From Macrostomum lignano (lineage: Eukaryota), in assembly GCA_002269645.1 (NCBI GenBank), contig NIVC01000247.1, positions 248,001-312,000 of the forward strand: a DNA stretch of 64,000 bases. Reading direction: 5' to 3'. A program made the position numbers and the translations under genes. This document shows, in pieces, positions 33,401-36,400 of this stretch (the stretch's first letter is position 1; each line of letters begins with the position of its first letter). The notes beneath the pieces are model-generated. The model saw only the letters and a program-made list of their open reading frames with translations. It was not told the origin of the DNA and ran no database searches.

Positions 33401-36400
33401 TGCTCGACAACAGAGAAGAAGACTTCTTAAAGTCAATCGCGATTGTGCAATCTACAGCTGATGACACCACGAGCAACACAACACGCTCTGTCAAAGCCGC
33501 GGATGCTTTAACAGCTGACAGCAGCTCATCTTCTCGACAGAGCCGTTCACTACCTGACTTATTGGCTACCACAGAACAACCGTCAACCACACCGATTCCG
33601 ACGACAGTTCAAGCTCCAACTATTACGTCTCTACCCTCACAGCAGACGCTTGATACAGCTTCACCTACATCCGAGCCTACTGTCACTACCTCTACAATTA
33701 AAAAATCTACTACCACACCTCTAAATCTGGAAATTACAACTCCACCAACTACGACAATAGCGACTAGTACAGTTCAAACACCCACAACAACGATGTCGCT
33801 TAGAAAACCTCAACACACTACATCTCTTCAACTTAAGTCTACAACTCTACCAACGACAGTAGCCACAACTACAGTTACGTCGTATAGTCCGCTAACTACG
33901 AAAACGACGACATCTACCGGTATTACCACCGAACAACTAACTCCTGGACCTATGTCTACAACACCTACTACCATACTGGAACCTGATCCTCTTAATATAC
34001 CATACCTACACCGCGACCAACCACCAATGCTGGAACATCAGGACAGAATCCGTCGCGCGATTCCACCTCCAGACAAAACAGTCAACATCACCAACGCTGA
34101 ACTCAAGCTATCAGAAAACCTCGTTTCGGCACAGCTTCTCTCCAGTCAACTACAAGGACTTCAATCGAAGACTCTACTCGATCTCAAGAAACTACACACT
34201 CAACTGACGACTACGCAGTGCAAGATGTACGCTTTGAATCTTCGCTATAGTCGCAACCTATACTATACCAATCCGACACTAGCTGCGCGTCAATTATTCG
34301 CTGACAAATTCATTTATGCGCACTCCATCGCTGGCTACATCTTTGTTCACCAATGTAAGCCACTAAGTCAGTTCCAGTTCGTTCAACCGCGATACTCACG
34401 AGACGAATGCTACACAAGACCACCGATACAATTTCAACTCCACAATAAGTCTGTTCTCGGATTCCTCGATACAACGACATCGATCATCTCAACAGCAAGA
34501 CCACCACTAATATCCTGCCGTTACCTACGAGACTACTATCTTCCAAAGGGTGAATTCATCTACAAAGCCACAGCCAACTTCAGCTCCTTTAGTCCGATAG
34601 AAGCACAAAATAGATCCGACGAAACCTACCTCCTACAGTCCTTATACTCCGACATTAGACAGAGTATCTTCACGCCACTTGGAGACGTCAACTACAGCGC
34701 TTTACGATCACCAGTAACAATAACTGACATGATGGAAAGTTTCATCCAAACACGTGATTTTCTAATCACTGTCTTTAAACTAAACAACGCTACTGGACGT
34801 CTCCACAAGGATGAATTCAAGCAGTTTGGCCTAAACGCCTTGGAAGCTTACCAGAATCTTTGGACATCTACCTTCTTCAGTTGGGAAAGATTCCAACAGA
34901 ATCATATGGAGAAGTTTCTGTTCAGTTCTGCTGTAATTGTCTACGCTGCACTACTAATTTTCCTTTGCAACATTGGTCGAATCTGCGTTGCCAACACACT
35001 AACTTATGGTCGAACACACCGCCTTATGGTAATGCGAACGACCGACCCATCACCGCAACAAAACCGGAGCCCACAGCGACTTCCTACTACCTCCGACCAC
35101 GTGTCGTTAGTACCATTAGTACTTACTTCGCCCTCTAGGAGAAACACAAAGGCGACAGCCCCATCAGCTCCACCTATGGAACTCGAAGAACGACAGCCAG
35201 CTATACCGTCTACTTCTTCACGGACAGATTCAAGACTCTACCCGACACTTCAACACTGGCCGGTTGCCTACAACACCGTCTTGAAACATCTTACGATGCG
35301 AACCCTCATCACGCTCTGGTGCACAAGCCCAAGAATGACCAAATGCAAGTGCACCGCGCTGATTGATAGTGGCGCCTCTATCTCTTGCGTTTCACCTACC
35401 TTCGCACAGAAACTACAGGCTGACATTTTACCCTGTAAAATACGCGTTCAATGTGCAGGAGGACAACTTCTTAACGTAACTAAACAGGCTAAATTTAGTA
35501 TGATCATCGGATCATCAAATCGGAAAATCACAGCTTACATATTGGAGGCTATGCCACCCGATTATGATCTAATTCTCGGTGTCGAAACCTTTAAATCCCT
35601 TGGCATACCACTGTCCATTGACTACGCCAAGTCAGAAGCACAAATCGATGGCACTTCGTTTCCCATATTGAATACTTACACAGCAACTGAGGTCGCTGAA
35701 GTCTACTTGCCAAAGCAGACTCACATACCCGCTCAATCTACCACCTGGATACAGGCGAATATCGACACGACCTATCCAAAGCGCCAGCCTGTCCTATTCA
35801 TACCAAAGGATCATACTATTCAACGCTATAAGCTCTTAATCGCAAGCTGCTTGACGCTTACAGATGAAACGGGTAATTCGATCCTCATACAGATCGCTAA
35901 CCCTTCACTACAGCCAGTAACACTCTATGCTCAAACACGATTAGGCAGTCTGTCCGATCCCGCGGAATATACACCTGTTACTTCAAAACCTACAGCAACA
36001 GTCAATACCATCTCTACCTCGCACGCACGACCTGAGACCGACCGCCAGCTAATTGAACAACAAACACGGCCTAACAATTCGCATCTGACACCCGAACAAG
36101 CTACGAGACTGTGCGACCTACTTTTAGAGTACCGAGATACGCTGGCTCTGTTACCTACGGATATGGGATGCACTACTCAATATACCGCCACAATTAACGT
36201 TCAACCACATACGCATCCAATTACATCGCGACCTTTTCCGATTGCACATGGTCTTCAAGAGCGTTTTGACCAACTGATCGAGAATTTCATCCACAAAGGA
36301 ATACTCAGCCCTAGCGAGTCGGAATACTCAAGCCCATGTCTACTGGTCGAAAAGAAGACACTTGATGAACAAGGACGCCGCCAATTGCGTCTTGTCGTTG

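What the first reader, a model, noticed from the sequence alone, without database searches (positions are those of the whole stretch)
35161..35250. ESCRT late-domain motifs in the Env tail and Gag C-terminus
Seen: PSAP at 35161-35172 and LYPTL at 35236-35250 in the segment between TM and protease, plus a second PSAP (32167-32178) at the end of Gag. Known: P(S/T)AP recruits TSG101 and LYPxL recruits ALIX during retroviral budding. Inference: the element carries a budding kit consistent with extracellular particles. Short motifs can arise by chance, but three in the expected cytosolic places is suggestive.
Basis: partly seen in the sequence, partly recalled or inferred. Interest (0 to 1): 0.7.

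Follow-up and report, generated by a model that had tools for sequence, protein, structure and literature searches.

The report
Budding motifs on retrotransposon envelope tail
A flatworm jumping gene with a herpes-like envelope protein carries, on that protein's inner tail, the short signals that viruses use to recruit the cell's membrane-cutting machinery, which suggests how such elements may leave cells as particles.

Summary
All three motifs are at the stated coordinates, in one 2,859-aa ORF of an intact, recently inserted LTR element (LTRs 575/576 identical). It reads Gag, internal signal, gB-type Env, TM, 94-aa tail, PR-RT-RH-IN: a known kind, the GAG-ENV-POL gB-type Ty3/gypsy errantiviruses.

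The Env-tail motifs look real. P[ST]AP occurs in 7 of 10 related lineages in this genome (0.3 expected) in tails mostly 20-35% identical, and once in 20,201 non-tail residues. LYPTL itself is lost in the two closest lineages, but [LIM]YPx[LI] is in 7 of 10 (pattern chosen after seeing them). One lineage carries all three classes. In 65 tails from elsewhere, 19 hold a late-domain motif (2.5 expected); 46 hold none. The host has TSG101 and ALIX.

The Gag PSAP is in none of five other lineages with a full Gag and is probably chance.

Best reading (0.6): the Env tail, not Gag, recruits ESCRT for particle release, as bluetongue NS3 does. Rivals: endosomal sorting of Env, or a protease or endocytosis site. 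Binding and budding are untested. My searches found no report of these motifs in such elements.

The parts
27926..28501 (+). 5' LTR (576 bp, ends TG...GA), inserted into a 36-bp minisatellite; target-site duplication TATG at 27922-27925 and 41331-41334
28503..28512 (+). primer-binding site beginning TGG; match to the 3' end of tRNA-Asp is recalled, not tested
30451..39030 (+). single 2,859-aa ORF: Gag-Env-Pol polyprotein
30451..32421 (+). Gag: capsid-like region shared with relatives (23-44% identity), zinc knuckles at 31657-31698 and 31855-31896, then a poorly conserved C-terminal stretch. No Pfam hit for the capsid region.
32167..32178 (+). Gag PSAP; not found in the Gag of other lineages; probably chance
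32422..32511 (+). internal signal sequence (basic stretch, hydrophobic core, predicted cleavage); an equivalent hydrophobic stretch is present in 9 of 9 lineages the script reached. Cleavage site by eye; no predictor was available.
32512..34917 (+). Env ectodomain of the herpesvirus gB / class III fusogen fold, with a Thr/Ser/Pro-rich mucin-like insert (33490-34044), a furin-type RIRR site (34045-34056) and 7 N-glycosylation sequons
34918..34974 (+). transmembrane helix (hydropathy 2.33), conserved in relatives
34975..35256 (+). cytosolic Env tail, 94 aa, linking TM to protease
35161..35172 (+). tail PSAP: candidate TSG101-binding late domain, kept as P[ST]AP in 7 of 10 lineages
35236..35250 (+). 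tail LYPTL: candidate ALIX-binding motif, [LIM]YPx[LI] in 7 of 10 lineages, absent from the two closest
35257..35262 (+). Trp-Pro, present just before the protease in 9 of 10 lineages; candidate aromatic|Pro site for release of Pol from the tail (site type recalled from retroviral proteases; untested)
35260..39030 (+). Pol in Ty3/gypsy order: aspartic protease, RT, RNase H, integrase
40742..40754 (+). purine-rich tract before the 3' LTR (candidate PPT)
40755..41330 (+). 3' LTR, one mismatch to the 5' LTR in 576 bp

Best explanation
The element makes one polyprotein. SHOWN (sequence): the order Gag, hydrophobic signal, gB-type ectodomain, TM, tail, Pol in a single frame. INFERRED: Gag is made in the cytosol; the internal signal sends the chain into the ER and leaves Gag membrane-tethered after signal-peptidase cleavage; the TM stops transfer; the tail and Pol hang in the cytosol, so Pol reaches the particle attached to Env and is freed by the protease, probably at the Trp-Pro site. 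SHOWN (comparative): the tail is enriched for and retains P[ST]AP, (L/I/M)YPx(L/I) and, in some lineages, PPxY. INFERRED: these are docking sites for host TSG101 (ESCRT-I), ALIX and NEDD4-type ligases. Env trimers clustered on a bud would display many copies and recruit ESCRT-III/VPS4 to pinch off enveloped particles at the plasma membrane or into multivesicular bodies. The late-domain job that retroviruses give to Gag is here carried by the Env tail. The Gag PSAP is probably incidental.
For: Own genome, 10 lineages in 4 clades: tail P[ST]AP 7 of 10 against 0.30 expected; [LIM]YPx[LI] 7 of 10 against 0.05; each in 3 of the 4 clades. Tails from different clades are 20-35% identical. The 11 other orderings of the same four letters occur in 0-2 of 10 tails. 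P[ST]AP occurs once in 20,201 non-tail residues, and not in the window's Pro/Thr-rich luminal insert (only 5% expected there, so a weak control). The motif codons differ at synonymous sites between lineages. Motif order switches between lineages (YP motif before PTAP in F4, after it in F1, F5a, F5c, F6), as expected of position-independent docking motifs. In 9 distinct F4 copies PTAP has 0 of 4 columns with an amino-acid change; in PPxY only x varies (4 residues), with synonymous changes in all 4 columns; 22 of 52 upstream tail columns and 5 of 7 downstream columns vary. Independent set (65 tails): P[ST]AP 9 (0.68 expected), strict LYPx(1-3)L 4 (0.25), [LIM]YPx[LI] 6 (0.32), PPxY 11 (1.43), any 19 (2.48); none of 3,000 shuffles reached these counts; the 300 luminal residues before the TM hold a motif in 3 of 65. 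Three unrelated motif classes that share only the ESCRT pathway are all enriched. Host TSG101 UEV and ALIX V domain are present. ALIX-family proteins bind YPXL/I (PMC3244986, passages). Precedent for late domains on a viral membrane protein: bluetongue NS3 (PMC6949946, PMC7995964, passages).
Against: No binding or budding data. 46 of 65 outside tails carry none of the three motifs, nor do 20 of 23 further tails with weaker TM calls, so the kit is not universal. Among the 26 tails that classed as Env fused to protease, P[ST]AP is in 0 of 26; two further PTAP/PSAP carriers, P0004 and P0044, were classed as fused. One own-genome lineage (F8) has no motif; F5b has PNAP and F7 has PPAP. Strict LYPxnL is in only 1 of 10 lineages and the looser pattern was defined after seeing them. 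The lineages are related, so 7 of 10 is not seven independent events. The host UEV differs from human TSG101 at two positions that I recall as lining the PTAP groove (Tyr to His and Phe to Val). PSAP also recurs in a luminal part of some nematode Envs (2 supplement rows seen of 3 occurrences), where it cannot bind ESCRT. The same motifs can serve endosomal sorting without any budding.
Confidence: 0.6

Rival explanations
1. The motifs do bind ESCRT factors, but to sort Env or the Env-Pol precursor into endosomes or multivesicular bodies for traffic or turnover, not to cut off particles.
For: All conservation and enrichment results fit equally well. Cellular membrane proteins use YPXnL and PPxY for lysosomal sorting (PMC7995964, passages and reference titles). 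ZAM particles are reported to use endosomal and exosomal routes (PMC3383448, passage).
Against: The element is intact and multiplying and keeps a complete fusogen fold, which is useful only on an enveloped particle. It has no conserved Gag late domain to do the job. Stacking all three classes within 20 residues (F4) resembles viral late-domain clusters. Sorting into multivesicular bodies and budding there are not exclusive.
Confidence: 0.2
2. The YP motif is not an ALIX site. It is an aromatic|Pro cleavage site for the element's protease, or a YxxPhi endocytosis signal; only P[ST]AP is an ESCRT motif.
For: In F1, F6 and F7 the YP motif lies 7-8 residues before the Trp-Pro site next to the protease. 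YPx[LI] fits YxxPhi. Tyr|Pro is a classic retroviral protease site (recalled).
Against: A separate Trp-Pro candidate site exists in 9 of 10 lineages, including the two that lack the YP motif. The motif also occurs in tails with no protease after them (P0085, P0122). In F4 and F5 it lies 24-27 residues from the Trp-Pro. Pro follows Tyr in 10 of 52 YxxPhi sites in outside tails against 8.7% Pro content, a modest excess that plain YxxPhi does not need.
Confidence: 0.13
3. The motifs are chance matches in a proline-rich disordered linker, inherited passively.
For: Tails are Pro/Ser/Thr-rich; most outside tails lack the motifs (46 of 65); the Gag PSAP does behave like this.
Against: Composition-matched shuffles and letter-permutation controls are exceeded 8- to 23-fold for the predefined motifs. 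The motifs persist where flanks are saturated, are spelled with different codons, and change order.
Confidence: 0.07

Closest known systems
GAG-ENV-POL HSV/gB-type Ty3/gypsy errantiviruses of nematodes, bryozoans and flatworms (Chary and Hayashi, eLife 2026, PMC13524379; Sacco et al. 2022 as cited there, not read)
   Same: Gene order, gB-type Env, Ty3/gypsy Pol, LTRs, several near-identical copies. The one element they list for this species lies at the place of a copy of lineage F4 here; F4 is about 40% identical to the window element in RT.
   Different: The window's lineage is not the one listed. The main text has no occurrence of PSAP, ESCRT, late domain, budding, cytoplasmic, 'single ORF' or 'fused'. 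The window's lineage and its two closest relatives add a mucin-like insert in the ectodomain.
Retroviral late domains (HIV-1 p6 PTAP and YPXnL; EIAV YPXnL; PPxY of oncoretroviruses)
   Same: Same three motif classes, in combinations, interchangeable and position-independent (PMC7995964, passages).
   Different: Those are in Gag. Here the conserved motifs are on the cytosolic tail of Env, between TM and protease.
Bluetongue virus NS3 (PSAP and PPRY on the cytosolic part of a viral membrane glycoprotein)
   Same: Late domains carried by a membrane protein rather than by the capsid or matrix protein (PMC6949946, passages).
   Different: NS3 is a non-structural egress protein of a dsRNA virus; here the carrier is the fusogen itself, and it also tows Pol. 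No homology is implied.
Drosophila errantiviruses (gypsy, ZAM)
   Same: Env-bearing Ty3/gypsy elements that spread between cells; a 2012 review says it is not known whether they use ESCRT and mentions an EIAV-like sorting motif in gypsy Gag (PMC3383448, passages).
   Different: Gag-pol-env order, separate Env, F-type fusogen.

Membership tests
GAG-ENV-POL gB-type Ty3/gypsy errantivirus | Pol in the order PR-RT-RNase H-IN | tested here: met
   Pfam hits in this order
GAG-ENV-POL gB-type Ty3/gypsy errantivirus | LTRs with primer-binding site | tested here: met
   576-bp LTRs, 1 mismatch, TSD, TGG-starting PBS; tRNA identity recalled
GAG-ENV-POL gB-type Ty3/gypsy errantivirus | Env of herpesvirus gB type between a signal sequence and a TM | tested here: met
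   AlphaFold model (mean pLDDT 68, insert disordered) hits herpesvirus gB at E 1e-13 in all listed PDB rows, TM-score about 0.4 by target, and nyamivirus, chu-like and gB glycoproteins; PF24664 in 5 of 8 aligned relatives, only a sub-threshold gB hit for the window itself
GAG-ENV-POL gB-type Ty3/gypsy errantivirus | Env between Gag and Pol | tested here: met
GAG-ENV-POL gB-type Ty3/gypsy errantivirus | Several near-identical genomic copies | tested here: met
   5 other copies 99.4-99.6% identical over about 9.5 kb, at least 4 further kinds of flank; 4 of the 6 have an unbroken frame of 2,859 aa or more
GAG-ENV-POL gB-type Ty3/gypsy errantivirus | Place in the published POL tree | not tested
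   Only an Env tree was built; kinship to the listed element by pairwise identity
Viral late (L) domain | Match to P(S/T)AP, YPXnL/I or PPxY | tested here: met
Viral late (L) domain | Cytosolic, disordered location | tested here: inconclusive
   Follows from signal plus one TM by hydropathy; no topology predictor or experiment
Viral late (L) domain | Conserved or recurrent beyond chance (Env-tail motifs) | tested here: met
Viral late (L) domain | Conserved or recurrent beyond chance (Gag PSAP) | tested here: not met
   1 of 6 full Gags, 0.18 expected; any motif class in Gag 3 of 6, 0.91 expected
Viral late (L) domain | Host partner present with its binding site | tested here: inconclusive
   TSG101 UEV and ALIX V present; ALIX keeps the Phe-Tyr of the motif-binding helix (role recalled); the UEV has two changes at recalled groove positions
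Viral late (L) domain | Binds TSG101 or ALIX | not testable with these tools
   needs a binding assay
Viral late (L) domain | Required for particle release | not testable with these tools
   needs experiment

The most novel reading that the evidence does not exclude
gB-type GAG-ENV-POL elements are enveloped endogenous viruses that have moved the budding programme from Gag onto the fusogen. One polyprotein tethers Gag to the membrane by an internal signal, carries Pol into the particle on the Env tail at one-to-one ratio without frameshifting, and recruits ESCRT through late domains that are gained, lost and reordered on that tail across animal phyla and in related RNA-virus glycoproteins. This would be an Env-driven budding route for a reverse-transcribing virus, and the most direct sequence evidence that non-insect errantiviruses leave cells as particles.
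Probability: 0.4. Interest if true: 0.75.

Novelty: new variant of a known kind. Interest (0 to 1): 0.55.

Why it matters
Whether errantiviruses outside Drosophila form infectious particles, and whether any errantivirus uses ESCRT, are stated open questions (PMC13524379 section 11; PMC3383448). Conserved late domains on the Env tail give a concrete, cheap handle: peptide binding to host TSG101 and ALIX, and host knock-down in a tractable flatworm in which the family is intact and recently active. They also suggest why the odd Gag-Env-Pol order works: the tail both recruits the scission machinery and delivers Pol. The element class itself is already described, and motif-based inference is not proof.

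Tried and rejected
Whole-polyprotein homologue search returned only the window's own protein; a profile search of longer proteins returned one F4-type protein of the same species. No close relatives from named species were found; most outside proteins carry no taxon (4 of the 20 looked up name an organism).

Gag PSAP as a late domain: rejected as unsupported. F3 has PPRY and F5 PPPY in Gag, so lineage-specific Gag motifs are not excluded (3 of 6 against 0.91).

Control for 'any linker before a gypsy protease has these motifs': 20 other protease loci of the genome plus the window's second element, none with a gB-type Env match in the fetched stretch. P[ST]AP was seen in 2 of 21 (one family, at the Gag end), PPxY in 1, the YP motif in none. 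Limits: only about 3.5 kb upstream was fetched, only ORFs of 250 aa or more were scanned, and the loci fall into far fewer than 20 families.

Expression: no RNA holder listed. Contigs of 4 runs (3 guessed to be RNA) cover the internal region with no joints, and one 11.5-kb contig bridges Gag, Env and Pol. Contigs drop rare forms, so a spliced Gag-to-tail form is neither shown nor excluded.

Complex prediction of host UEV with the tail peptide was not available; nothing was folded. The first tree run gave no answer and was redone with FastTree; deep nodes are poorly supported and I draw no order of gains from it. One search stopped at lineage F8, so its signal region was only viewed by eye. Earlier findings of the scan: none.

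Literature: 10 searches. None surfaced late domains in the Env tails of these elements. Sacco et al. 2022 is not held and may discuss them. Of the eLife supplements I saw only search hits.

Full report
OBSERVATION. The window holds one long frame, 30430-39030, first ATG at 30451, 2,859 aa. P[ST]AP occurs at 32167 and 35161 and LYPTL at 35236, as reported. Shuffling the tail gives PSAP/PTAP in 2.1%, LYPx(1-3)L in 1.0% and both in 28 of 200,000; block shuffles of the whole ORF expect 0.20 P[ST]AP. The pair in the tail is unusual; the lone Gag match is not.

THE ELEMENT. LTRs of 576 bp at 27926-28501 and 40755-41330 differ at one base. They are flanked by a TATG duplication inside a 36-bp minisatellite, with a TGG-starting primer site and a purine tract. 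Pfam finds protease, RT, RNase H and integrase in Ty3/gypsy order. Upstream lie a Gag with two zinc knuckles, a hydrophobic internal signal, an 800-aa ectodomain and a TM. The ectodomain model (mean pLDDT 68, the mucin-like insert disordered) matches herpesvirus gB in every listed PDB row (best E 1e-13) and nyamivirus, chu-like and gB glycoproteins. Sequence evidence alone is weak for the window (gB hit E 0.07) and better for relatives (PF24664 in 5 of 8). Six copies are identical over the TM-protease query, four with an unbroken frame. The five others are 99.4-99.6% identical over about 9.5 kb with at least four further kinds of flank. A database record of the identical protein names the host as the flatworm Macrostomum lignano.

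RELATIVES IN THE SAME GENOME. Searches listed 137, 30 and 134 matches. I read the 30 loci given and 40 longer stretches picked to cover the identity bands, and took one copy for each of 10 lineages; broken loci L082, L083, L086 and L098 gave no readable tail. The ten fall into four clades: F1-F3, F6-F7, F4 with F5a-c, and F8. RT identity to the window runs from 85% (F2) to about 33%. Tails from different clades are 20-35% identical. P[ST]AP is in 7 of 10 tails (0.30 expected): F1, F2, F3, F4, F5a, F5c, F6. F5b has PNAP, F7 PPAP, F8 nothing. [LIM]YPx[LI] is in 7 of 10 (0.05 expected): F1, F4, F5a-c, F6, F7. It is absent from F2 and F3, the closest relatives, and from F8; strict LYPxnL is in 1 of 10, and I chose the looser pattern after seeing these tails. 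PPxY is in 1 of 10 (0.51 expected). The other 11 orderings of P, P, A, S/T occur in 0-2 of 10 tails, and P[ST]AP occurs once in 20,201 non-tail residues, the window's Gag site (all). F4 stacks the three classes within 20 residues. Across 9 distinct F4 copies, PTAP has no amino-acid change; in PPxY only x varies (four residues) while all four columns show synonymous changes; the first position of the YP motif alternates Leu/Met; 22 of 52 upstream and 5 of 7 downstream columns change. The order of the motifs differs between lineages. The lineages are kin, so these are not ten independent trials; each motif is in three of four clades.

RELATIVES ELSEWHERE. A profile of the C-terminal Env half found 318 proteins at E up to 0.001, 150 listed. 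75 had a TM call. I dropped three of this genome's own and seven with tails under 40 residues, leaving 65. P[ST]AP is in 9 (0.68 expected), LYPx(1-3)L in 4 (0.25), [LIM]YPx[LI] in 6 (0.32), PPxY in 11 (1.43), any class in 19 (2.48); no shuffle of 3,000 reached these counts. The 300 residues before the TM hold one in 3 of 65. Letter permutations give 0-4 against 9, 0-5 against 11 and 0-1 against 6. Without the two closest proteins the counts are 7, 4, 6, 10 and 17 of 63. Of the other 75, 46 end too early; 23 usable ones give any class in 3 (0.64 expected). Against the reading: 46 of 65 tails have no motif, and P[ST]AP is in 0 of the 26 tails that classed as fused to a protease, where YP and PPxY motifs appear instead (6 of 26). 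Some 'terminal' tails may be cut gene calls. Named carriers are Haemonchus contortus, Caenorhabditis angaria, C. tropicalis and Beihai rhabdo-like virus 3, an exogenous virus.

GAG PSAP. The Gag C-terminal stretch is not alignable between lineages. P[ST]AP is in 1 of 6 full Gags, the window's own (0.18 expected); any class is in 3 of 6 (0.91 expected). I put about 0.7 on chance.

HOST SIDE. The genome has TSG101 UEV (3 strong matches; E 1e-44 to human TSG101) and ALIX V-domain exons (E 1e-14 to human ALIX, with the Phe-Tyr of the last helix kept). The UEV differs at two positions that I recall as lining the PTAP groove.

MECHANISM. With one internal signal and one TM, Gag and the tail plus Pol are cytosolic and Env is luminal (inferred from hydropathy). 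A Trp-Pro precedes the protease in 9 of 10 lineages and in 8 of 26 outside fused tails (2.76 expected), a plausible aromatic|Pro cut (site type recalled) that would leave both motifs on Env. The most economical reading is that the Env tail recruits TSG101, ALIX or NEDD4-type ligases to release enveloped particles (0.6). Rivals are ESCRT-dependent sorting of Env without budding (0.2), a protease or YxxPhi role for the YP motif (0.13) and chance (0.07). That the tail motifs dock ESCRT-pathway proteins at all I put near 0.8.

COMPARISON WITH WHAT IS KNOWN. Chary and Hayashi (PMC13524379; I read the abstract, section 5 part 1, section 6 part 1, section 11, passages and supplement search hits) describe GAG-ENV-POL gB-type errantiviruses in nematodes, bryozoans and flatworms and list one element for this species, located at a copy of F4. 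Their main text does not contain PSAP, ESCRT, late domain or budding. Late domains are classically in Gag or matrix proteins; bluetongue NS3 is a noted exception on a membrane protein (PMC7995964 and PMC6949946, passages). ALIX-family recognition of YPXL/I is stated in PMC3244986 (passages). A 2012 review says ESCRT use by errantiviruses is unknown (PMC3383448, passages). Searches found no report of late domains on these Env tails. Sacco et al. 2022 could not be read.

VERDICT. A new lineage of a known element class. What appears new is that the conserved late-domain kit sits on the fusogen's tail and recurs in a minority of gB-type envelopes far beyond this genome. Function is inferred from sequence only. 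Interest 0.55.

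Noticed in passing
window 13684-16932 (+): A second, different Ty3/gypsy element: pol with PR, RT, RNase H, IN and no gB-type Env match; its gag frame is interrupted by stops.
   Followed up: partly
window 5463-6968 (-) and 60874-62343 (-): Two long ORFs with weak Mab-21_C hits (cGAS/Mab-21-like); they appear to belong to a segment repeated about 53-55 kb apart.
   Followed up: no
window 8887-9912 (-): Ankyrin-repeat ORF.
   Followed up: no
L070 and L073 (G000:C738, G000:C391): A gypsy family has PTAP in the last six residues of its Gag ORF, after a zinc knuckle, placed like HIV p6; no Env-like ORF of 150 aa or more in the 8 kb after one copy. 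A possible Gag late domain in an element without Env.
   Followed up: partly
window 33490-34044: A 185-aa Thr/Ser/Pro-rich mucin-like insert just before the furin site, present in F1-F3 only; possibly an O-glycan shield.
   Followed up: partly
window 27926-28501 and 40755-41330: The LTRs end TG...GA instead of the usual TG...CA; three of the six copies sit in minisatellites.
   Followed up: no
P0002 and L099: F4-type sequences lacking the stretch that holds the three tail motifs while the flanks remain; a deletion or a gene-model splice, not resolved.
   Followed up: no
L031 and L033 tails (F2, F3): The two lineages without the YP motif have proline-rich PxxP runs at the same place, perhaps SH3-binding substitutes.
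   Followed up: no
window 28502-30450: A 1.9-kb leader and a 1.7-kb 3' untranslated stretch (39031-40754); only one ATG-started plus-strand ORF over 50 aa, 77 aa at 29308.
   Followed up: no
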